39,250 nucleotides of DNA, from the IMG/VR virus record IMGVR_UViG_3300020044_010916, positions 1 to 39,250 of that record. One strand, given 5' to 3'. Position 1 is the stretch's first letter. Every line of letters starts with the position of its first letter. The notes below the pieces were generated by a model. The model made no database searches, was not told the DNA's origin, and worked only from the letters and a program-made list of their open reading frames with translations. Both the position numbers and the translations under genes were made by a program. Positions 3,702 to 39,129 of this stretch are shown here, in pieces. This DNA comes from a virus (taxonomy: Duplodnaviria; Caudoviricetes).

Positions 3702-4366
3702 ACATTCCTCATCTTCAAGTGTGTCGATTTAGGCATTAACCTAGCTACATCTGTAGCAAAGTCTTGCTCATCTGTCATTTCAATGGGGGGATAATTTGGG
3801 GCAACATCCCATAGATTATTCTCATCAAATATCAGCATCAAGCGCCCGTCCCGCATATCTTTCGCGTATCTTTTGGTGTCGAAATGAAACACGGTCATCT
3901 TGGTAATGTATGCGGGGTCCACTTTCGCAACATCCACAGGGTCGATAATGTCGGTTAATTTCTGCAATCCTACCACCCACTTTACCGAGCGTTGACCGCC
4001 CTTTTCGATGCAAAATCTGCAATAGGTCCCGCTGATTTTAGGGGTCTCTGCAAAGGTCATTTCTTGGTACGTGCGTTCGCGTACCGAGTCGACAATCTTC
4101 TCAAGCCTGCCCTGACGCTCAGATATGGAATCGCGCATTTCGGAAAGTTGCAGGAGTGCATTTTCGCAAGTTTTAATGAGCCCCCATCGTCTATCCACGC
4201 TATCAACGATAGCCTCTTCTGTGCCTTTAAGAGCAGGTAAAAGGTCATCGGGTATTACTCCCTCGTTGTTCTCTGCAAACTCCAAAATGGACGCGAGTTG
4301 CATCAAGGATTCATGCAGGGGAATTCTTTTTACTGGAACTACTTCCAATTTTGTTTTTGGTGCCAT
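3698..4366 (-). CDS. Gp157/Mu-Gam-like coiled-coil protein
   Basis: Long helical N-half, RLEKIVDSVRERTYQEM...KISG; located upstream of bet. Confidence 0.55.
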   Translation of the reverse strand: MAPKTKLEVVPVKRIPLHESLMQLASILEFAENNEGVIPDDLLPALKGTEEAIVDSVDRRWGLIKTCENALLQLSEMRDSISERQGRLEKIVDSVRERTYQEMTFAETPKISGTYCRFCIEKGGQRSVKWVVGLQKLTDIIDPVDVAKVDPAYITKMTVFHFDTKRYAKDMRDGRLMLIFDENNLWDVAPNYPPIEMTDEQDFATDVARLMPKSTHLKMRNV

Positions 4367-4511
4367 TTGGGCTCCTCTTTTTAACGTAACTGGTGACGTA
4401 GGCTCCGAGCTTTGTCGAAACCGTCTCGCCTTCTTTAAGTAACAACTGTCTAAACTTCCGATATGTTGCCTCGTCTACGCCCACGCGCATAACGGTGCTC
4501 TTTTCTTGCAT
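4311..4511 (-). CDS. Small ribbon-helix-helix (CopG/Arc-like) regulator
   Basis: MQEKSTVMRVGVDEATYRKFRQLLLKEGETVSTKLGAYVTSYVK; GGAGG SD 9 nt upstream of ATG 4511. Confidence 0.65.
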   Translation of the reverse strand: MQEKSTVMRVGVDEATYRKFRQLLLKEGETVSTKLGAYVTSYVKKRSPNGTKNKIGSSSSKKNSPA

Positions 4512-4541
4512 TCCTTTGAACCTCCACATATAATCCGGTGT

Positions 4542-4596
4542 CACTGTAACATTGTAACTTGTTACAGTGGATAGCTCGCATATTCAAACCTGTCAA
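4542..4596 (-). promoter_or_regulatory. Leftward promoter with palindromic operator
   Basis: TTGACA(4596-4591)-17 nt-TATCCA; perfect 10-bp inverted repeat CACTGTAACA/TGTTACAGTG at 4542-4569. Confidence 0.6.
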
Positions 4597-7925: not shown

Positions 7926-10337
7926 TTAAATGTATTTAATAAGCAATCTGTAGTAAGCAATTACGCCTGTATTATGGATATATACATTCGTAGAGTCAAA
8001 TAGCTCTCTGGTGGTAGAACCAGTTCCGAACCTCACATCATTCGCAACAGCTACCGCTCCCCCTCCGGTGATTTCGTAGTTAGTTCCAGAGTAAGACGAT
8101 GAGTAACTCCAGATTCCAGTCACAGAAATGATGTTTGTAGAGGTGAGACCGTGAGCCACGTTTGTTGTTGTTGCTGCCGAAGCGGTTCCACTCAATACTT
8201 TCCATTTAATTCTGTGGGAACTTCCGAGGTAATCCGTGGAAATCCCGCCACCAAAGTCTGTGTTTCCATTTCCGTACACTATGAGTGGTTGGGCTTCTCC
8301 TGAGCGAGCTAAGTTTGCGCCTCCTGTTTGAGTAGTTGTATTAAACATAAGCGTCATAATTGGATTTGTTGCTGCACTTCTTCTCGCTAGTTCAAGGATT
8401 GAGTAGCCTGTGTTACCTGATATTGCACGGAAGTTTCCAACATTATCATAGTAGTTATTTGTTCCTAGGAAGATGAAGTCGGTTGAACCTAAGCTTCCTG
8501 AACTTCCGGAATCGGTATTGGTGATGACTGCTGCACCCCGGAACCAGTGGTAGGCATCTCCAATGCTTGATCCACCGAATCGCCAAGCGCGAGATGTTTC
8601 AATTGAACCCGCAGATGCAGCTGCTCCATCGACTGAGAAGTGTAGTGGTTGAGATAATGAGTATAAATGTGGCCTAGTATTTGCATGATCGTAATACATC
8701 CCGATTCGAGTCACAGAGGCTTGCGCCACCGCAAATCCGGGCGATCGTAGAGCTGCCGAATTGACAAGGCCCAGGTCTCCGTTGAGGGTCTGAACACCCG
8801 TAAATGAAACGGGGCCGATATTAAATGCACCTGCTGAACTCCAAGAGCCGACTTCCGCCCCTGCGGCTGCAAAGCCCACGCTGTCGGCTGCTTTACTGAA
8901 GAGACCTGTATTTGTGTCTCCCGAAAAAGCGATGCTTGGAGTGCCTGCGGAACCGGCTGCGGCCCTGAATTGGCCTGCCACGGTGAGCACACTGTTTGCA
9001 ACAATAGAGCTTGAGAATGTCGCTGTGTCAGAAACGAGCAGAGTCGAGCTAAGAGTTGCCGCGCCAGTGACTCCAAGGGTCGTGCTAAATGATGCTGAGG
9101 TCCCGGTAAGAGCCCCCGTGACTCCAAGGGTCGTAGTGATTGACACTGAATTGAGCGTTGCCAATTCAGATGACGCGAGCGTTGTAAACGAGCCCGAAGC
9201 GCCGCTTATCGGCGTACTTGCGATAGTTCCACCGATGATCGTCGGAGTGTTGATTGCGGGGGATGTCAGCGTTTTTGACGTCAACGTCTGAGTTGCTGCG
9301 ACTCCCACAAACGTGTCAGAGACGTTGGGGAGGGTCCATTGCCGATCTGCTGACGCTGTGCTGATAATTTCGCTCGAAAAAGCCGCACTACCCGGAGTCA
9401 GGCGAATTGTTCCCGCTGCGGCAGGAGCGAGAAATTCCCAGCTCGATCGCGAGTTCCCAACTTTAACGTAACCAGTCGCAACAGAGTTTTCTTCAACTTC
9501 AATGCCTGAGGCATTGCCAGAGGCTGCAGCTCCACCCTTATTTAACGTGATAATCTTGTCTGTTACCTTGAGGTCCGTTACATCAACCCATGCCAAAGTT
9601 CCGGCAATATAAACAGTGTCCCCAGCTCCACCGATGTTGATATTCTGTGTAGTGCCACCTGTCCCGATGTTGATGATTGCGGCATTTACTGTCCCGATGC
9701 TCAACGTATCAAGTGCTGTCGAGACATCAATTCGAGTCCCAGGCCCCGCAAGAATATTGCCGTTGCATACAATCGAGCTGGCAAATGTTGCGGTATCAGC
9801 TACGGCGAGCGCTTTTGTTACGTTAAGGCCACCTTCGATGTCATGAACTTGCACCCCACCACTCGCGCCGAGTGTGAATTTTCCTAGTGCGCTCCACTGC
9901 CCAACGAATACGCCCCCAGCGACAAAACCCACGCTGTTTGCAGAATTTAGGAAAAAACCCGTGTCGGTGTCGGTGGTCCAAGAGATCGAGGGAAGGAGGA
10001 TGGTCCCATCTGAGACGCGCAATTTATTGGCGACCTGAAGCACAGCCCCATTCACGTACATACTGCTTGCTGCGGTTACATCATCCGTCACGCCAAGTGT
10101 TCCACCGATTGTTACAGCTCCGGAAAAAGCCCCCGTCGTTGCTGTAATCGCCCCGCTCGCAAGGGTGCCAATACCCGAAATGTTGTTGGAGTCATCAACC
10201 ACAATCCCGGAGCCCTGCGCACGCTTTCCGCTCGTTCCATCAAATCTTACTAACGTATTATCCGTCGAAGAAGCGGGCCCATCCATATCACCCGTGAGGT
10301 AAAGTGAGCCCTTAAAAGGGTCGAATTTCCAGTACAT
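7926..10337 (-). CDS. Tail fibre / receptor-binding protein
   Basis: 803 aa G/S/T/A-rich; GPASSTDNTLVRFDGTSG, PSIAFSGDTNTGLF, DKIITLNKGG and TTLGVTGA fibre-type motifs. Confidence 0.85.
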   Translation of the reverse strand: MYWKFDPFKGSLYLTGDMDGPASSTDNTLVRFDGTSGKRAQGSGIVVDDSNNISGIGTLASGAITATTGAFSGAVTIGGTLGVTDDVTAASSMYVNGAVLQVANKLRVSDGTILLPSISWTTDTDTGFFLNSANSVGFVAGGVFVGQWSALGKFTLGASGGVQVHDIEGGLNVTKALAVADTATFASSIVCNGNILAGPGTRIDVSTALDTLSIGTVNAAIINIGTGGTTQNINIGGAGDTVYIAGTLAWVDVTDLKVTDKIITLNKGGAAASGNASGIEVEENSVATGYVKVGNSRSSWEFLAPAAAGTIRLTPGSAAFSSEIISTASADRQWTLPNVSDTFVGVAATQTLTSKTLTSPAINTPTIIGGTIASTPISGASGSFTTLASSELATLNSVSITTTLGVTGALTGTSASFSTTLGVTGAATLSSTLLVSDTATFSSSIVANSVLTVAGQFRAAAGSAGTPSIAFSGDTNTGLFSKAADSVGFAAAGAEVGSWSSAGAFNIGPVSFTGVQTLNGDLGLVNSAALRSPGFAVAQASVTRIGMYYDHANTRPHLYSLSQPLHFSVDGAAASAGSIETSRAWRFGGSSIGDAYHWFRGAAVITNTDSGSSGSLGSTDFIFLGTNNYYDNVGNFRAISGNTGYSILELARRSAATNPIMTLMFNTTTQTGGANLARSGEAQPLIVYGNGNTDFGGGISTDYLGSSHRIKWKVLSGTASAATTTNVAHGLTSTNIISVTGIWSYSSSYSGTNYEITGGGAVAVANDVRFGTGSTTRELFDSTNVYIHNTGVIAYYRLLIKYI

Positions 10338-10842: not shown

Positions 10843-11328
10843 TTACCCCGAAATTTCGTATTTGCGGGCACATCCAGACGCTACAATGGAGACGATAACG
10901 GTTGCAGCATCTGCCGCGATGGCTGTGTTAACGAAGCGCCCAGCAAGCCCCCACATGACAGGAACGCGTTGCTTAAAGCTCTTGTTGGTTGTACCTGAGT
11001 CACCTTTAAATGCCTGTTTCCAAATCAGACGCGCCTTAAATTTTGCTTGTTGTGCAACGAGATATGTGTTGGTGATAGCTGTTCCGGTGTTGGTATTGTC
11101 ACTTCCACCTTCAGGAAGTCCGCCAATATCCCACAGTTCAAATTCCCCTCCATCTGTTGATGCGGGCATGATATCGCAGAAATAGAGCACGCCTTCGGTA
11201 GACTGGCGTACCTGAGTTCCCATTGTGGTTGCACCACTCCCAGCGGTACAAAACGAAGGGTAGAGCTGCACAAGGTTACCCGTAGCCGAGGCTACGTTTG
11301 TGAGCGTCAAAGGGCTCCATGGTTGCAT
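10843..11328 (-). CDS. Small beta-rich putative virion protein
   Basis: 161 aa T/G/A-rich; GGGAGA SD. Confidence 0.6.
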   Translation of the reverse strand: MQPWSPLTLTNVASATGNLVQLYPSFCTAGSGATTMGTQVRQSTEGVLYFCDIMPASTDGGEFELWDIGGLPEGGSDNTNTGTAITNTYLVAQQAKFKARLIWKQAFKGDSGTTNKSFKQRVPVMWGLAGRFVNTAIAADAATVIVSIVASGCARKYEISG

Positions 11329-11340
11329 AACTTGTCTCCC

Positions 11341-11376
11341 AACAACATCCTGTTGTTAAATTGCGCATCCTTGCGC
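11341..11376 (-). promoter_or_regulatory. Tandem GGA-loop hairpins (CsrA/RsmA-type sites)
   Basis: GCGCA-AGGA-TGCGC and AACAACA-GGA-TGTTGTT immediately 5' of the SD. Confidence 0.65.
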
Positions 11377-24828: not shown

Positions 24829-25521
24829 ATGAAACAGATACAGACTGCCCCGCACTTCGTCAAGCCCTACCCACAAGCTGCCTTGGGTGGTGAGCTTGGA
24901 CTCACTCTGACCGATATCGCCCAAAGCCTTGGAGCCGAGGTGTTCAACGTCCGAAAGAAGTTTCTCGCCCGAGGGATGAGTGAAAGACTCGAAAGGCTGT
25001 CCTTGACCGCCATTCCAATTGGAATGGCCAACAAATCCAACGGATTGGAAGTCACGGAATACGTTCTGCCTGTTGAAGCAGCAAAGTTCTTTATCGCTCG
25101 CTGGGATAGCGAGCTTGGGGACGGCTACCTGCGGATGCTGATTGAATATGAGCGCATCGTACTGGAAGAGATGCCAAAGCTCATTCGCGCCCTTCAAGAA
25201 CAAAAAGCTGTCATCATCAAGCTTAAAGCCAATGCTATGCAGCTCCCCCGTCGCAAACCCGGCCCCAAAAAGGGCAATGTTCCAGTTTTCATGTTGGAAG
25301 ACAGCCTCTTTCAGCGATTTGATGACGAAGTACATATCCCGACAAAGGTAAAAAAGGTCTTTGTGCCACGCTCAGAACTCACGCAAAAAGAAATCCTTGC
25401 GAACGAAAATATTTCGATGAATTACTGTATTGACGGGATGATGAGGAAGATAATTAAAAATCAGGCTTTGATAATGTACTATGAGCAGCCTGCGCATGTA
25501 CGCTTAAAACCGGCAAAATAA
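24829..25521 (+). CDS. AntA/AntB- or Rha-like antirepressor
   Basis: LTLTDIAQSLG...NGLEVTEYVLPVEAAKFFIARWDSELGDGYLRMLIEYE pattern. Confidence 0.65.
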   Translation: MKQIQTAPHFVKPYPQAALGGELGLTLTDIAQSLGAEVFNVRKKFLARGMSERLERLSLTAIPIGMANKSNGLEVTEYVLPVEAAKFFIARWDSELGDGYLRMLIEYERIVLEEMPKLIRALQEQKAVIIKLKANAMQLPRRKPGPKKGNVPVFMLEDSLFQRFDDEVHIPTKVKKVFVPRSELTQKEILANENISMNYCIDGMMRKIIKNQALIMYYEQPAHVRLKPAK

Positions 25522-27617: not shown

Positions 27618-27863
27618 TTATTCCTTTGTGATGGGGCTTTGACGCGCAATAGATGCATTTGCCAAAAACATTGCGTGATTCAGATATTTTAATGCGTCTT
27701 TCTGGTCGTCATCAATTGGGCAATTTTCCAAAATTGCATAAGCTGCGGCCTTAAGAGCAGCACGAACATTCTGAAAATTTCCGGCATACTCGCTTGCATC
27801 ATGATAGGTAAAGTCATTTTCAACTTTGGCCTTCTGGTAGTCCTTAAAGAGAGCTATCGTCAT
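27618..27863 (-). CDS. Acb2/Tad1-like helical-hairpin protein (candidate nucleotide-signal sponge)
   Basis: ENDFTYH...VRAALKAAAYAILENCP...ALKYLNHAMFLANASIAR matches the FTYH...CP...A-x-x-x-ANA-x-IAR family pattern as I recall it. Confidence 0.7.
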   Translation of the reverse strand: MTIALFKDYQKAKVENDFTYHDASEYAGNFQNVRAALKAAAYAILENCPIDDDQKDALKYLNHAMFLANASIARQSPITKE

Positions 27864-28953: not shown

Positions 28954-30260
28954 TCTCTGTAATCCTGTGACATGGCCCTTCGCATGTTCCACGCTGCTGC
29001 TGATAGATCATCATCCATGTGTGGGTTGCGTTCAGGCTTTTTGCGTTCGAAATTTGACAGTTCGCGAACAAGGTAACGCAAGGCCGCCTCGGCGTCAAAA
29101 TGTCCCCATGTGCATTGGGAATAGTCGATTTCCCCCTCTTTGGTCGCCTTTTTGGTTTCCCAAACTGCCGCGTTCAAGTCTCGAATGAGGTTCTTGCACC
29201 GTGGGTGGATTTTGATCCTGTCCTTCCAAAACATCTCTTTGATCTGCATGCGTGCGCCCATTATGTTTATCTTATTGGCAAGCCCCGCTTGAATTCCGCG
29301 CCTGTTTAACTCTTCAATCTTGGCGGGGTCATGGTCCGAAACACAGGCAAATGACGTTACTTTATAGTGCTCATGCACGGATTTAATGCTTGCAGCTGTT
29401 ACCTCTGGCATCTCGTTTTTCTTGTAGTGTTCATCAAACACATGCAGCACTTCGTCTTTTACGTACGCAAAGAGCACGCAGGTTGCAGATGGATCAAAGC
29501 CCCAGTCAATCGCCTCCACAACCATTTGCCAGTCGCCAGGGTTCTCAATGGTGGGGTCGATGTGATTTGCTGTGAATTCTGGATAAGCACGCCCTTGGAA
29601 AGTCACCCATTCGCATTCATATTCCTGTCGGAAAATATCGGGAAGCGTGGTTTTTCGAAGCTCCTCGAATTCCTCTATCGTAACAAGCCCCATTTCAACA
29701 AGGCGAGACAAAGGAATGCGGATGGACTTGAATCCTAGCTCTGCTGCATTGTCAAAAAGGTCTTTCCAGCCGTTGTGCCCGTTGGTTGTCGACTCTAATA
29801 ACACATAGCCCGCTGTGGTTCGAAGCGTGGGCTTTATGCACTTTTGAAACACGTCATTTACTGTTACGCCATGCTCAAGTTTCGAGAAAGCCACCTCAGA
29901 CCAATGAATAAAGTGATAAGTCCCCCCTCGAAGTCTATCGGGGTCCTTGTCAACGCTATCCAAAAAGCAGATGGCCGTTTTGTGGTCCTTGCGGATGATC
30001 GCTTCAGTGTTAACGTTGAAGGCTTCCTTCTGGAAAAGTCGAAAGAATTTCTCCCGTGCTGCCTTTTTGCCTGCACTCTTAGACTTCGCTAGAAACAGGG
30101 CAGAATGGGTTTGTGGCACATCTAAAAGTTGCCTGACCATTCGTACCCCAAGCTCTGTTTTGCCCTCCTGCCGGGGCAGAATGAGCATCAGGCGACGTTC
30201 GCGCAGAAGCACGCTTGCACACAGGGCTTGAATGGGCTTTAGAGTGCGGAAATCGATCAT
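28944..30260 (-). CDS. terL: Terminase large subunit
   Basis: Walker A PRQEGKT, DRLRGG, ESTTNGHN, FRQEYECEW, nuclease AIDWG. Confidence 0.92.
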   Translation of the reverse strand: MIDFRTLKPIQALCASVLLRERRLMLILPRQEGKTELGVRMVRQLLDVPQTHSALFLAKSKSAGKKAAREKFFRLFQKEAFNVNTEAIIRKDHKTAICFLDSVDKDPDRLRGGTYHFIHWSEVAFSKLEHGVTVNDVFQKCIKPTLRTTAGYVLLESTTNGHNGWKDLFDNAAELGFKSIRIPLSRLVEMGLVTIEEFEELRKTTLPDIFRQEYECEWVTFQGRAYPEFTANHIDPTIENPGDWQMVVEAIDWGFDPSATCVLFAYVKDEVLHVFDEHYKKNEMPEVTAASIKSVHEHYKVTSFACVSDHDPAKIEELNRRGIQAGLANKINIMGARMQIKEMFWKDRIKIHPRCKNLIRDLNAAVWETKKATKEGEIDYSQCTWGHFDAEAALRYLVRELSNFERKKPERNPHMDDDLSAAAWNMRRAMSQDYREWD

Positions 30261-31042
30261 CTGCGGCGCAGGGCATTCTTGTTACGTTGCGCAAGGAACT
30301 CTTGGCGCAGAGTCGCTTGGACTTCGGAACGTAGTTGCGAGTCTTCAATCATCTGCGCTTCTTGCCAAGCCTGGGAGAAGTCTTCTTGCGTGATCGGAGC
30401 GGTTGCCTCACGCACTTCTTCGACGATTTGCCGAGCTTTGGGAGGCACTGCGGCCATCACAAAGTGCTTTACCATTTTCTTACGCGCTGCATCATCATTG
30501 ATGACTTTCTGGAAAATCGCAGGCTCTTTTTCGCGCAGATATTTAAGTTCTTGAACGATAGAGCCCTCAATTGCGGTCCTGATATGGGGCGATTCTTGCC
30601 CGCCATAGACTTGGTTTAGCTGCGCCCGAATTGTCTTGTCGATATCGGAATAGGCCATATTTTCATCGGTGGTAGACGGGTCATCTAGCCGCTCTTGGCG
30701 TGCTTGGAGCTGCTGGATGATTTGCGTGGCCTTAGCAAGCTGCTTTTGGGTGTCCATCAATTGCGTGGCGACTTGCACGGTGATGGGCATGGGCTGACCG
30801 TTTTTCTCTGCTTCAAATGCCGCATTCATAATCTGGTCGAACCATTCGTCTTGTGCGGGTTCGCCGTCTTCGCCAGTAAAAACTGCTTGAAGTTTGGAGA
30901 GGATTTGCTCGTTCCTTGAAGATTTGCTTGCGGCCTCTGAGGCTGTTTGTCGAGTCTCGCCCATTTCGCGTTGGTACTGCTGAAAAAAATCGGAGCCTGT
31001 GCTTTCACCTGCTCCGCCGTCGCCGCCTGTTTCTACGCTCAT
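30257..31042 (-). CDS. Putative capsid scaffolding protein
   Basis: 261 aa acidic, Q/E-rich helical with basic C-terminus. Confidence 0.5.
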   Translation of the reverse strand: MSVETGGDGGAGESTGSDFFQQYQREMGETRQTASEAASKSSRNEQILSKLQAVFTGEDGEPAQDEWFDQIMNAAFEAEKNGQPMPITVQVATQLMDTQKQLAKATQIIQQLQARQERLDDPSTTDENMAYSDIDKTIRAQLNQVYGGQESPHIRTAIEGSIVQELKYLREKEPAIFQKVINDDAARKKMVKHFVMAAVPPKARQIVEEVREATAPITQEDFSQAWQEAQMIEDSQLRSEVQATLRQEFLAQRNKNALRRR

Positions 31043-31078
31043 TGTTACCCCTGTCTATGGTAACAAAGACGCGCTCTG

Positions 31079-32769: not shown

Positions 32770-32976
32770 TTATTTCTCCATATACTTTCGCCAATTTTTC
32801 TTCTTTTTATCGGGGCCAGGATAATAATCTTCTTCTTTGCCGACTTCGCCCCGTGTGTACTTATCGTCGATATCAGCGGGCCGAGCGTATTCCTCGGTCG
32901 CAAACCAACCTTCGCCCGCATATTTCATTGGGTTTATGTCGTCTTTTGCAGCCTGTTTAAACTCGTCCCGCGTCAT
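32770..32976 (-). CDS. Small charged protein
   Basis: 68 aa; fills the operon gap without overlap. Confidence 0.6.
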   Translation of the reverse strand: MTRDEFKQAAKDDINPMKYAGEGWFATEEYARPADIDDKYTRGEVGKEEDYYPGPDKKKKNWRKYMEK

Positions 32977-33340: not shown

Positions 33341-34633
33341 TTAGATTACGCCTGAAGGGATAGCAAGGCCAGAAATCTTGCCAGTCAGGTTACGTTGTTT
33401 AACAACGGTATTCGCCCAAAAACGATAGAAGGAGCTGAGGGAGTCGTAGCCTTGGCGGAAGCGGAATTCTGAGCCGTCTTCATCAGCCAACGAAGGCGCA
33501 TCGCTGTAGTCAGTTCCCAGCATCATCGCGCTAGGGTGCCAGAAATAAAACACGTCAGGCTCACAGTTTTTATCTTCGAGCATGTCGAATTCTGTGGGCT
33601 TCATGTTCTTCTGGTCTTCGCCCATTTTAAGGGGAGAGAAGGTCAAGGAAGACGCGCCTGTATCGAAGTTATTCGAGTTGAAACGACGTTGGTTGAGGAA
33701 CTGGCTAAGGTAACTGCGCTTTTGACCAGGGTTGAACACCATGTTCTTAGGGTATTTTCCACCGATGATGTACATACTGTCGAACTGCAACTGCAAGAGT
33801 TCTTGCGAGATGTTACCATTTGCAGCGCTCTGATTTGTGCTCATCCATTGGGCATATGTTGAAGGGGATAAATTTCCTAGTGAAAGGGAGTTGTCCGTCA
33901 TTCGGTCGAGACCGCAAATATATCTGCCGTCAGAAGGCTCATTTGCTGCTAGTGCCCCATACACAACTAGCTTATCACCCGCTACAGCTCCCGCAGGAAC
34001 TGCACCCGATCCAAAGGTTGCGTCAATGTAAGGTTTGCGGGCCATGCGGTCTGTTCCCTTAACCGCAATCATGATCGAGCCACGCTTGGTAGCGTAAGTC
34101 GAGTCGTACCAGTCAAATTTCATTTCAGGGCGAATACGGGCAGTCGTCACAGCCGTAAAAGATGCAGCGGCTGCGGTTGCAGTGTCCACTGTTGCGCGGT
34201 ATCCACGGCCATTACCGTAAAGGTCGAAGTCCAAGTTGGACATGAAGGACAACAAGGTTCCCTTCAACAAATCGTCCATGTACTTGCCGCCTGCACGACC
34301 ACCGTTGTGCCCACGGGTAGCAGCAAACTGGGTCGCTTCTGCGGTTGAGTACATCAATTTAGCGCGGTATTTAGCGAATACTTCTTTAACCATGCCAGAC
34401 TCAGGAAGACGTTCACCATCGACAATTGCCGCGTAGGACTCATTGATAGTCAATTTCACTGGTACGTTAAAATTGAGTCCATCAAATTGCACGCCTTCAT
34501 CGCCAGACGAAACCTTACGAATTTTGTTGTAAAGCGAGCTTTGGATGTGCTCTTGGTACTCCACATCGTTTGCATAAAGTTCTTGCAATCCACCAAAAGT
34601 TTCAAAATTACTATCAAAAATAGCAGCAGTCAT
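33341..34633 (-). CDS. Major capsid protein (HK97 fold)
   Basis: 430 aa from MTAAIFD; GLNFNVPV...GERLP...DLYGNGRG...ICGL...QRNLTGKISGL pattern. Confidence 0.85.
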   Translation of the reverse strand: MTAAIFDSNFETFGGLQELYANDVEYQEHIQSSLYNKIRKVSSGDEGVQFDGLNFNVPVKLTINESYAAIVDGERLPESGMVKEVFAKYRAKLMYSTAEATQFAATRGHNGGRAGGKYMDDLLKGTLLSFMSNLDFDLYGNGRGYRATVDTATAAAASFTAVTTARIRPEMKFDWYDSTYATKRGSIMIAVKGTDRMARKPYIDATFGSGAVPAGAVAGDKLVVYGALAANEPSDGRYICGLDRMTDNSLSLGNLSPSTYAQWMSTNQSAANGNISQELLQLQFDSMYIIGGKYPKNMVFNPGQKRSYLSQFLNQRRFNSNNFDTGASSLTFSPLKMGEDQKNMKPTEFDMLEDKNCEPDVFYFWHPSAMMLGTDYSDAPSLADEDGSEFRFRQGYDSLSSFYRFWANTVVKQRNLTGKISGLAIPSGVI

Positions 34634-34654
34634 TAAATTTTCCCCTGGTTTTTT

Positions 34655-34690
34655 GGCAGTCATCCATGACCGCCTAAGTTCTTCCTGAAC
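34655..34690 (-). promoter_or_regulatory. Tandem GGA-loop hairpins (CsrA/RsmA-type) in the capsid leader
   Basis: GTTC-AGGAA-GAAC and GGCGGTCA-TGGA-TGACTGCC. Confidence 0.6.
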
Positions 34691-34718
34691 GCAAAACCCC
34701 AGAAACTGCACAAAACCC

Positions 34719-34745
34719 TGTTACTGTGTCAAGTAACAACGTAAC
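34719..34745 (-). promoter_or_regulatory. TTGACA box flanked by GTAAC repeats
   Basis: TGTTAC-TG-TGTCAA-GTAACAAC-GTAAC in the divergent intergenic region. Confidence 0.45.
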
Positions 34746-34774
34746 GGCAAGAATCGCAGGCATGAGAGGATGGT

Positions 34775-35122
34775 ATGACGCGGCCAAAGAAGCCCAAAGA
34801 GTTTGCAAAACCAACAGTGAGAAAGAAGCCCAATCCAAGGCCAAAGAAGGCCCCTATCCCCTCTCCACCCACCGAAGAGGAGGAACTAGCTGCGATTGAG
34901 AAAGAGGCGGTTAGCGAGATTAAAATCGGGCTTGAGGTACTTCGGGAGATTGCTTCGGGTGCGGGGCAGTATGAGCCCACGGAACGAGTGGCGGCCGCCA
35001 AGGCTTTGATTGCCTACGGCAGTTCTCAGATTGTGCATGTTCGAAAGGTCAGAAAGCCGGTGGAAAAGCCGCAGGAAAAGATTGCGCAGTTAACTTTGTT
35101 CGATTTTCCGATTTCGAAATGA
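34775..35122 (+). CDS. Terminase small subunit-like protein with C-terminal QLTLF motif
   Basis: LEVLREIA...ERVAAAKALI helical core, basic N-terminus, GAGGA SD. Confidence 0.5.
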   Translation: MTRPKKPKEFAKPTVRKKPNPRPKKAPIPSPPTEEEELAAIEKEAVSEIKIGLEVLREIASGAGQYEPTERVAAAKALIAYGSSQIVHVRKVRKPVEKPQEKIAQLTLFDFPISK

Positions 35123-35240
35123 GTGTTGCACGCGCACAAATCGCCATCGCTGCAACGCGATCAAAGGCTGAAGGTAAGAGATGGACCCAATTAATTAGGT
35201 GCGGCTTGTGTTACTTTGATGGCACTAAGAGAGCATGGAA

Positions 35241-35395: not shown

Positions 35396-35659
35396 TCAAG
35401 AGCAACGATAGGCAAGTCTTTCCTCTTTTTCCGGTTCTTTTTCCGGTTCTCTTTCGCTCTTTTGCTCATCGCTCCACCTTTCAAAATACTCTTCAAATCC
35501 AATTTTGCTTAGTGAGTAAGCAAGGTTAATGAATTCAATTATAGGGCAAGATTTCCGCTTTCCCGATGGTGCTTCTATCACGACCCAATCACAATTATGT
35601 CTAATGCGTACAATATACCCATAGGATTCTACGGTCTCCCAAGCTTGGGAAAGGTTCAT
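35396..35659 (-). CDS. Hypothetical protein
   Basis: 87 aa, ATGA overlap; EPEKEPEKE repeat. Confidence 0.65.
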   Translation of the reverse strand: MNLSQAWETVESYGYIVRIRHNCDWVVIEAPSGKRKSCPIIEFINLAYSLSKIGFEEYFERWSDEQKSEREPEKEPEKEERLAYRCS

Positions 35660-38008: not shown

Positions 38009-38893
38009 TCAGAATGGCAAGGCTTCGGCTTCGTAATCTACCGTGTCATTTTCTGCGCAAAGTGACTGTTTTTTTGGCTGCTTTTTCGTGTGCCCAGTTT
38101 CCATTTGCTTAAGGATATTGTCAATTTTTAGACGCCCGTTGGACTTCGATTTTACGAGTAATCTCGCGGCGCTTCGGCCATTGTCGAACCAAAATTCATG
38201 ATCTTCTTTGATGAACTCAAAGACCATTTTTAGCGCCGCTGGGGTCATCTTCTTGCGCTTGGCAACCTTGGCTAGGGCTACGTCATAATTTTTCGCCTGG
38301 AGAGCGTTCTCGGGGTGTTCTGCTCTCACCCAAGCTTCCCACTCTCTGCCGAGAGCGACGATTTCGGGGTCGATTGGTGCAGGCACATCTTTTTCAATGG
38401 GGGGGGGCGTTGCAAAGCGCTCTTCTTCTTTTCTTAGAGGGGGATCTGCTTCAATGGGATCTTCTTTATGTCTACGTGGTAGACTACCCTGGTCTTTCTC
38501 AGAGACTACCCCTAGTCTTTGTGGTAGACTACCCTGGTCTTTCTCAGAGACTACCCCCCCCTCTTTTTTGCATGGCAACCACACGCTTTTATCATTGACG
38601 GTTACATGATTTGTATTCTTGCACCCGTCTTTATCGACACTTCGAACGATCGAAATGATGTTCTTTTTTTCAAGTTTTTTGAGCGTAGATATGACTTTGC
38701 AGCGGGATATAAGGGTCGCTTCGCTAATACTCTTGATGCTTTCGAAGCAAGTCGATTTGAAGCCTGCACGCCGTGCAATGCGCCCGAGAATGCGGAACTC
38801 GTAGGGGTCTAAAAATATATCGTCTGCTTCAAGATCGAGCCAGATGAAGGGAGTCTTGCGGGAATCACTAACGACTATCATATCTTCGGCCAT
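38009..38893 (-). CDS. Replication initiator with N-terminal HTH (lambda O-analogous)
   Basis: CFESIKSISEATLISRCKVISTLKKLEKKNII wHTH; internal DNA repeats; upstream of the DnaC-like gene. Confidence 0.85.
   Translation of the reverse strand: MAEDMIVVSDSRKTPFIWLDLEADDIFLDPYEFRILGRIARRAGFKSTCFESIKSISEATLISRCKVISTLKKLEKKNIISIVRSVDKDGCKNTNHVTVNDKSVWLPCKKEGGVVSEKDQGSLPQRLGVVSEKDQGSLPRRHKEDPIEADPPLRKEEERFATPPPIEKDVPAPIDPEIVALGREWEAWVRAEHPENALQAKNYDVALAKVAKRKKMTPAALKMVFEFIKEDHEFWFDNGRSAARLLVKSKSNGRLKIDNILKQMETGHTKKQPKKQSLCAENDTVDYEAEALPF
38476..38557. repeat. Iteron array / probable replication origin inside the initiator gene
   Basis: 37-nt exact repeat at 38476 and 38521; AGACTACCC four times (38481, 38503, 38526, 38548). 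Confidence 0.85.
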
Positions 38894-39129
38894 ATCGTCC
38901 TTTCCTTGGACCCATGACCGGCCTGCCTCTAGTTACGATAAATGCTCAAAACTTGCGTATGAATCGCACTCATGGTACCCAAAAAGCAGTCCGTCCTTGG
39001 GACTCTAGAACCCTGGTCTTCGCGGTCTACCAAAACTAGCGATAACCGGGGTTATTTATTTCTGGCCGATCAGTAACATTGTACTTGTGTCCTGACAAGT
39101 TAGCCGAACCACAAAGCAAAATGCAAGAT
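38894..39129 (-). promoter_or_regulatory. Structured non-coding leader/promoter region of the replication operon
   Basis: GGA-loop hairpins at 38897-38911 and 38988-39004, long hairpin at 39009-39053, GTAACATTGTA box, TTGTCA. Confidence 0.6.

What the first reader, a model, noticed from the sequence alone, without database searches (positions are those of the whole stretch)
34655..34690. CsrA/RsmA-type GGA hairpin pairs in three key leaders: candidate host-CsrA-controlled phage regulon
Seen: the mRNA-sense leader of the major capsid gene has two adjacent hairpins with GGA loops (GUUC-AGGAA-GAAC; GGCGGUCA-UGGA-UGACUGCC), about 20 nt before the ATG. The same paired arrangement occurs before the tail operon (11341-11376) and the replication initiator (38897-38911, 38988-39004). 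Established: CsrA/RsmA dimers bind pairs of CA(N)GGA(U)G hairpin loops near the SD. No csrA-like ORF is visible here. Inference: the phage gates replication, capsid and tail translation on a host post-transcriptional regulator, which would couple development to host physiological state.
Basis: partly seen in the sequence, partly recalled or inferred. Interest (0 to 1): 0.8.

Follow-up and report, generated by a model that had tools for sequence, protein, structure and literature searches.

The report
CsrA-type twin hairpins in phage leaders
An uncultured freshwater phage with no detectable csrA gene carries small hairpins tipped with the GGA motif in front of its capsid, tail-module and replication genes, one of them kept by paired mutations in a close relative, and they likely bind the host's translation regulator CsrA, which would tie virus protein synthesis to the state of the host cell.

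Summary
The hairpins are real. Five C-A(N)GGA-N-G hairpins lie in 1,858 nt of intergenic DNA, all on the mRNA strand (shuffles: mean 0.06, maximum 1 of 1,000; opposite strand 0). The pattern is the top one of 1,024 possible loop patterns. A roughly 89%-identical relative has two compensatory pair changes in the capsid-leader stem, with both loops unchanged. The capsid and tail-module leaders share a twin geometry (GGA to GGA 20 nt). The replication leader is not such a pair: its hairpins are 91 nt apart, one is terminator-like and one holds the ribosome-binding site. No csrA was found in this complete 39.1-kb genome or in 7 related phage records. The best reading is that host CsrA/RsmA binds these leaders and represses translation (about 0.6). 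Against it: the host is unknown, binding is untested, covariation rests on one hairpin in one relative lineage, and only 1 of 21 distant relatives has an upstream site (chance level). My searches found no paper showing host CsrA binding phage mRNA. This scan has noted similar leaders in many other phages.

The parts
34679..34691 (-). H1: 4-bp hairpin, AGGAA pentaloop on a C-G pair (CAGGAAG)
   Evidence: no change listed in the X6 relative
34655..34674 (-). H2: 7-8-bp hairpin, AUGGAU hexaloop on a C-G pair, one G-U pair
   Evidence: two compensatory pair changes in X6, loop and G-U kept
34641..34646 (-). Capsid Shine-Dalgarno-like word (AGGGG) ending in a third GGA, 22 nt after the H2 GGA
   Evidence: SD role inferred from position
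34699..34709 (-). Predicted 5' strand of a basal helix pairing with the SD flank and the first capsid codons
   Evidence: both X6 changes keep pairing; SD pairing not above shuffled flanks, 97 of 300
33341..34633 (-). Major capsid protein gene, 430 aa
   Evidence: phrog_14242 E 5e-23; 219 homologues
11363..11376 (-). H3: 4-bp hairpin, AAGGAU hexaloop on a C-G pair (CAAGGAUG, SELEX core)
11340..11358 (-). H4: 7-bp hairpin, AGGAU pentaloop (ACAGGAUGU); abuts the SD
11336..11340 (-). SD-like word (GGGAG) of gene 10843-11328, predicted to pair with a UUUCC run 5' of H3
   Evidence: pairing 0.80; 16 of 300 shuffled flanks as high
10843..11328 (-). 161-aa gene of no known family, first of a module that goes on to a tail-fibre-like, holin-like and amidase-like gene
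38988..39004 (-). H5: hairpin with CAAGGACG site, followed by a U-run (terminator-like)
38897..38911 (-). H6: hairpin with AAGGAAA loop holding the SD of the replication gene; its predicted lower stem holds the start codon
38009..38893 (-). Replication initiator gene (lambda O-like) with two 43-nt internal repeats
   Evidence: phrog_678 E 1e-7; repeats at 38470-38557
39083..39100 (-). H7: further GGA-loop palindrome, not a consensus site; may be a DNA operator, not counted among the five

Best explanation
The capsid, tail-module and replication-gene leaders of this phage carry selected RNA hairpins with A(N)GGA loops that likely serve as binding sites for the host's CsrA/RsmA dimer, which would repress translation of these genes until host CsrA is titrated. 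Shown: the hairpin sequences, their enrichment on the mRNA strand of intergenic DNA, covariation of one stem, the same 20-nt loop spacing in two leaders, and no detectable phage csrA. Inferred: a dimer bridges the two loops (H1+H2, H3+H4), or H2 and the GGA in the capsid SD 22 nt on. In the tail-module leader the bound protein would sit beside the SD and could clamp the SD-holding helix shut, as RsmA does on psl. In the replication leader it would lock H6, which holds the SD. Also inferred: the host has csrA, and the abundant late mRNA would itself soak up CsrA and so release the block.
For: Enrichment 5 vs 0.06, none on the antisense strand; top of 1,024 patterns. X6 contig (74 differences in 660 nt): of 7 listed substitutions, 4 form two compensatory pairs in H2 (256 of 2,000,000 random placements give two or more); 2 others keep predicted basal pairs (U-G to U-A; A-U to G-U); none hits a loop. 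Protein P0001 from a JGI assembly has the N-terminal residues that the 3'-arm changes predict. All five sites fit A(N)GGAX on a C-G pair (PMC4005645 passages) and CAGGA(U/A/C)G or the SELEX core (PMC7652899 section 4). The 17 nt between GGAs lie within the 10-63 nt bridging range, near the >18 optimum. Twin ANGGA stem-loops are the CsrA site of C. jejuni flaA (PMC4894983 passages). No CsrA in own genome. Absence in distant kin fits a host-specific adaptation better than a clade-wide phage protein (inference).
Against: Host not identified; only about 30% of bacterial genomes have csrA (PMC13443453 passages). Distant relatives at 54-66% capsid identity: 1 of 21 has an upstream site (shuffle mean 0.27, P 0.24) and 3 of 21 have an SD-zone site (control 1.18, P 0.12); none of 11 homologue rows for gene 10843-11328 shows the twin by eye. 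Covariation rests on one contig and one hairpin; H3-H6 have none tested. Capsid hairpins lie outside the SD, and SD pairing to the 5' flank is not above shuffles (97 of 300). SELEX ligands mostly have 4 or fewer pairs, whereas H2 and H4 have 7-8. The same paper shows that GGA hairpins do not guarantee repression by every CsrA homologue. Forcing the loops open did not change SD pairing in folding, so folding alone gives no switch.
Confidence: 0.6

Rival explanations
1. A phage-encoded RNA-binding protein not recognisable as CsrA (for example the putative scaffold, or a small early protein) reads the GGA-loop hairpins and co-ordinates replication and virion protein synthesis.
For: Most small genes have no family. 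Autoregulation by phage proteins such as the P22 scaffold or T4 RegA is recalled knowledge. The 87-aa ORF 35396-35659 is predicted as an alpha-beta-beta-beta-alpha domain (pLDDT 73.5). Earlier scan notes e1-10237036 and e1-6281325 argue for non-CsrA readers of similar leaders (not checked by me on their DNA).
Against: The loops match the CsrA consensus including the C-G closing pair, which another protein need not require. The putative scaffold (30257-31042) and the structural genes have homologues in distant kin but the hairpins do not, and none of the five consensus hairpins lies in the scaffold gene's own leader. Fold searches for ORF 35396-35659 gave no clear match (best Z 4.5; HicA3 Z 2.9; Foldseek none at E<=0.001).
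Confidence: 0.15
2. The hairpins are protein-independent RNA structures (5' stabilisers, spacers that keep the SD open or shut, an attenuator at H5); the GGA loops are SD-like decoys or ribosome standby sites.
For: H2 is stable (-11.4 kcal/mol) and covaries, as any structural element would. H5 is terminator-like. H6's GGA is simply the SD. An in-frame ATG lies in H2 with an SD-like word in its 5' arm, so H2 could just hide an upstream start.
Against: Does not explain why five intergenic hairpins with unrelated stems share one loop consensus out of 1,024, nor the same 20-nt spacing in two leaders. H1 and H3 have only 4 pairs. Homologues begin at the second ATG.
Confidence: 0.15
3. The inverted repeats are DNA operators for the phage's Arc/ribbon-helix-helix repressors.
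For: An Arc-like gene (21-542) and GTTAC/GTAAC palindromes near likely promoters exist; H4's arms and H7 resemble them; symmetric changes can occur in operators.
Against: The arms of H1-H6 share no sequence while the loops do. The loop motif is strand-specific (5 vs 0). H2 keeps a pair that is G-U on the mRNA strand and a mismatch on the other while neighbouring pairs swap.
Confidence: 0.05
4. CsrA-family binding is real but mainly activates or stabilises the mRNAs, or the late mRNA acts as a sponge for host CsrA, instead of being repressed.
For: Capsid sites lie upstream of the SD; CsrA activates ymdA, moaA and phz2 and stabilises flhDC (PMC7652899 passages); flaA mRNA titrates CsrA (PMC4894983 passages).
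Against: Activation cases open a hairpin that holds the GGA; here the GGAs are in loops, so binding should stabilise the stems; H4 abuts and H6 contains the SD.
Confidence: 0.1

Closest known systems
Campylobacter jejuni flaA 5'UTR (CsrA-FliW system; PMC4894983, passages)
   Same: Two adjacent stem-loops with ANGGA loops in front of a very abundant structural protein; compensatory changes in relatives.
   Different: In flaA the second loop covers the ribosome-binding site; here both capsid hairpins lie upstream of it. Here the mRNA is viral and binding is untested.
RsmE/CsrA high-affinity hairpins: hcnA leader, RsmZ SL2-SL4, CsrB repeats, SELEX consensus (PMC4005645 passages; PMC7652899 section 4)
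   Same: A(N)GGAX penta- and hexaloops directly on a C-G pair; each twin has one hexaloop and one pentaloop site.
   Different: Two sites per leader in cis, not a many-site decoy sRNA; H2 and H4 stems are longer than most SELEX ligands; no Rfam match.
P. aeruginosa psl leader and E. coli glgC leader (PMC7652899 passages)
   Same: psl: RsmA stabilises an SD/anti-SD helix, as predicted for the tail-module leader. glgC: repression needs two-site bridging.
   Different: The SD-holding helix here is only predicted (16 of 300 and 97 of 300 shuffles as good).
CsrA repression of the ColE7 plasmid lysis gene cel (PMC2896534, abstract)
   Same: Host CsrA controls a gene of a mobile element through an upstream loop site and an SD site.
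   Different: One plasmid gene, tested; here three phage leaders, untested.
Phage-encoded CsrA/RsmA homologues (PMC8450108 and PMC11879866, passages)
   Same: Link between phages and the Csr system.
   Different: Those phages bring the protein, proposed to act on host genes; this phage has the sites but no detectable protein.

Membership tests
CsrA/RsmA-regulated mRNA leaders | A(N)GGAX loop of 5-6 nt directly on a stem closed by C-G | tested here: met
   H1-H5 (H5 with a 1-nt bulge); H6 has a 7-nt loop
CsrA/RsmA-regulated mRNA leaders | Sites on the mRNA strand in 5' leaders, beyond chance | tested here: met
   5 vs 0.061 in shuffles, 0 antisense; top of 1,024 patterns
CsrA/RsmA-regulated mRNA leaders | Two sites 10-63 nt apart for dimer bridging | tested here: met
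   Met for capsid and tail-module leaders (GGA starts 20 nt apart); H5 to H6 is 91 nt, outside the range unless the intervening predicted hairpin brings them close
CsrA/RsmA-regulated mRNA leaders | A site overlapping or abutting the SD or start codon | tested here: inconclusive
   Yes for H6, H4 abuts; in the capsid leader only a weak third GGA lies in the SD
CsrA/RsmA-regulated mRNA leaders | Structure conserved with loops kept in relatives | tested here: inconclusive
   Met for H1/H2 in one close lineage; not kept in 20 of 21 distant relatives; H3-H6 had no close relative to test
CsrA/RsmA-regulated mRNA leaders | CsrA present in the same cell | tested here: inconclusive
   None found in the phage; host not identified
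CsrA/RsmA-regulated mRNA leaders | Direct GGA-dependent binding and change of expression | not testable with these tools
   Needs gel shift, footprint and reporter assays
CsrB/RsmY/RsmZ decoy sRNAs | Stand-alone RNA with many GGA loops and its own terminator | tested here: not met
   Two loops per leader, running into a coding gene; no terminator after H2 or H4; no Rfam match at E<=1
Phage-encoded CsrA circuits | csrA-family gene in the phage genome | tested here: not met
   PF02599 0 matches in the whole record; phmmer --max of one CsrA against 893 six-frame segments, best E 2.8; 0 of 7 related phage records. A very divergent homologue is not excluded.
Intrinsic terminators | G+C stem followed by a U-run | tested here: not met
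   Not met for H1-H4 and H6; met only for H5

The most novel reading that the evidence does not exclude
A phage with no CsrA of its own has wired its replication initiator, capsid and tail/lysis modules to the host's CsrA, so that the host's Csr state (nutrient or flagellar status) licenses replication and virion building, and the abundant capsid mRNA then titrates host CsrA as a positive-feedback switch.
Probability: 0.3. Interest if true: 0.78.

Novelty: new variant of a known kind. Interest (0 to 1): 0.5.

Why it matters
CsrA is among the best-studied bacterial RNA-binding regulators, and phage-borne csrA genes are known, but their role in the phage cycle was described as untested before a 2025 knockdown (PMC11879866 passages). 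My five searches found no paper showing host CsrA bound to phage mRNA leaders. If true, this is a way for a phage to read host physiology at the level of translation. It gives three short leaders that can be tested at once by gel shift and reporter in laboratory strains, and such sites could hint at which hosts an uncultured phage infects. The limits: the parts are canonical, a plasmid precedent exists (ColE7 cel), and this phage is uncultured with an unknown host.

Tried and rejected
Host search led nowhere: cultured-phage tblastn gave one uncultured relative and distant RecT/terminase hits; the genome index gave only phage-sized or short contigs in bins and short DNA matches; atlas and homologue tables named no host. 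One relative sits on a 44-kb contig of an Armatimonadota bin that has csrA, but binning does not show a host and its capsid leader lacks the hairpins, so I do not use it. So this exact pair is not a widespread phage motif; looser versions were not testable. No sigma-70 promoter passed the scan in any of the three leaders, so the 5' ends used for folding are my guesses. No RNA holder was listed. The upstream in-frame ATG inside H2 (a 440-aa call in P0001) was considered as the real start and rejected as the main one because homologues begin at 34633. ORF 35396-35659 as a HicA/dsRBD-like reader: 4 homologue rows, no clear fold match; inconclusive. The genome-index search with gene 10843-11328 and with its homologue P0124 did not complete, so intermediate relatives of H3/H4 are untested. 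Rows dropped before the 21-leader count: 7 loci without a called ATG, loci covering only the gene's 3' part, 14 duplicates, 1 short leader and 2 near-identical leaders. Eight further leaders viewed by eye showed no twin. Supplements of the cited papers were not read.

Full report
Context. The window is a whole virus record with direct terminal repeats (121-nt repeat), about 39.1 kb, 49% G+C, with nearly all genes on the minus strand. Family scans of 53 proteins found a major head protein, terminase, portal, an SU10-type adaptor, RecT, Gam-like, DnaC-like, lambda O-like initiator, VRR-NUC, Arc-like repressor, endolysin and holin-like genes, and no integrase or CsrA. Runs holding related DNA are labelled freshwater, drinking-water and sediment metagenomes. 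No Rfam family or tRNA was found.

Observation. I defined the site from the literature form: C-A-(N)-G-G-A-N-G with the C and G paired, plus at least 3 more pairs. The form was first recalled and then checked in PMC4005645 (passages) and PMC7652899 (section 4). The minus strand has 35 such words, 8 with a stem; 5 of the 8 lie in 1,858 nt of intergenic DNA (H1-H5) and 3 in about 37 kb of coding DNA. The plus strand has 14 words and none with a stem. Dinucleotide shuffles of the intergenic segments gave a mean of 0.061 and never more than 1 in 1,000. Because the pattern was chosen after seeing the finding, I counted all 1,024 analogous loop patterns: this one is top with 5, the next has 2, and the best pattern in 500 shuffles reached at most 3. 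The capsid and tail-module leaders share a geometry: one pentaloop and one hexaloop site with GGA starts 20 nt apart, then a third GGA in the SD. The replication leader differs: GGA starts are 91 nt apart, H5 is terminator-like, and H6 holds the SD with the start codon in its predicted lower stem.

Selection on structure. A contig of run X6 covers the capsid leader (74 differences over 34581-35240). Laid on 34585-34830 it has 14 differences, of which the tool lists 7 substitutions away from the ends; I assume the other 7 lie near the ends. Four of the 7 fall in the H2 stem as two compensatory pairs (34657/34672 and 34660/34669). The loop, the G-U pair and all of H1 are unchanged. Random placement of 7 changes gave two or more compensatory pairs in 256 of 2,000,000 trials. 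Two more changes keep predicted basal pairs; the seventh (34730) lies upstream of the folded part. The JGI protein P0001, called from an ATG inside H2, has the residues that these changes predict, so the variant is on record in a second source. X1 covers the leader without a difference. This is one lineage and one hairpin; H3-H6 could not be tested.

Distant relatives. Capsid homologues are many (219) and I fetched loci from three collections. Of 21 distinct leaders at 54-66% capsid identity, 1 has an upstream ANGGA-loop hairpin (L009, the closest; shuffle P 0.24) and 3 have one in the SD zone (P 0.12). Homologues of gene 10843-11328 start close behind the upstream gene and show no twin (11 rows). 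So the element is lineage-specific. None of 7 related phage records encodes CsrA.

Who reads it. The genome has no CsrA by profile, by Pfam scans of 53 and 20 ORFs or by phmmer without filters over 893 six-frame segments. One small early ORF was modelled as a possible RNA binder and gave no clear fold match. The host could not be found. About 30% of bacterial genomes carry csrA (PMC13443453 passages).

Mechanism. I commit to host CsrA/RsmA binding with translational repression (0.6). A dimer can bridge sites 10-63 nt apart, which fits both twins and H2 plus the capsid SD site. In the tail-module leader H4 abuts the SD, and a UUUCC run before H3 is predicted to pair with it (0.80; 16 of 300 shuffled flanks as high), like the psl leader that RsmA stabilises. 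In the capsid leader the same helix is predicted but is not above chance (97 of 300). Forcing the loops single-stranded left SD pairing unchanged, so any switch must come from the protein. Binding, direction and physiological coupling are all inferred. Rivals: a phage-encoded reader (0.15), protein-independent structure (0.15), CsrA as activator or sponge target (0.1), DNA operators (0.05). The sponge and activation reading shares the CsrA premise, so a CsrA-family reader of some kind stands at about 0.7.

Comparison and novelty. It works like C. jejuni flaA (twin ANGGA stem-loops; PMC4894983 passages), glgC and psl. Membership among CsrA targets is met on sequence, strand and spacing and is open on host and binding. 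It is not a CsrB-type decoy and not a phage-CsrA circuit. Host CsrA controls a plasmid lysis gene (PMC2896534 abstract), and phage csrA genes are known (PMC8450108, PMC11879866 passages). Five searches of the open-licence library found no paper on host CsrA binding phage leaders; subscription journals and supplements were not covered. Searches were seen as listings only, apart from the papers named. Earlier notes of this scan describe similar leaders in many other phages, with and without their own csrA, and one argues against CsrA; none concerns this genome or its capsid family. They are unchecked and I used them as leads only.

Verdict. A real, selected RNA element; a CsrA-type reading is likely but unproven; new variant of a known kind; interest 0.5.

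Noticed in passing
L008 ~9750-10010; L029 ~2350-2610; L217 (same genome as L003), 5' end of capsid gene: Three distant relatives carry an insertion of roughly 250-270 nt after about codon 14 of the major capsid gene. The first part ends in T, the insertion ends in G, the flanks would rejoin in frame to the family consensus, and shared blocks resemble a group I intron (recalled resemblance); Rfam gave no match at E<=0.1. The window's gene has no insertion.
   Followed up: partly
window 34722-34739, 4550-4575, 39075-39100, 31045-31065: GTTAC/GTAAC palindromes or repeats near likely promoters, possible operators for the Arc-like protein 21-542 or an RHH-like ORF in 4311-4544 (label by eye).
   Followed up: no
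window 38470-38557: Two 43-nt direct repeats (95% alike) inside the O-like replication gene, likely origin iterons. No integrase was found among 53 scanned proteins, so the lifestyle is open.
   Followed up: no
window 34663-34661: An in-frame ATG inside H2 would give a capsid 10 residues longer; the frame is also open in the relative (P0001). Both starts begin with the same seven bases.
   Followed up: partly
window 32770-32976 (minus): A 68-aa ORF of no known family two genes after the capsid gene is the best conserved small protein (hits in 44 loci, 60-70% identity in the rows shown).
   Followed up: no
window 27618-27863 (minus): 81-aa ORF with a weak Acb2/Tad1 hairpin-domain match (E 0.005, under the cut-off), a possible anti-defence nucleotide sponge.
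   Followed up: no
window 35396-35659 (minus): 87-aa early ORF predicted as an alpha-beta-beta-beta-alpha domain with only weak HicA/dsRBD-like structural neighbours.
   Followed up: partly
window 24829-25521 (plus): Rha/AntA-like antirepressor gene inserted against the direction of the late genes, flanked by terminator-like hairpins seen by eye.
   Followed up: partly
L009 capsid leader; L010 and L043 capsid SD: The closest distant relative has one upstream AUGGAU-loop hairpin plus a CAUGGAGG SD; two others fold the SD into a consensus-like hairpin. Not above chance as a set.
   Followed up: yes
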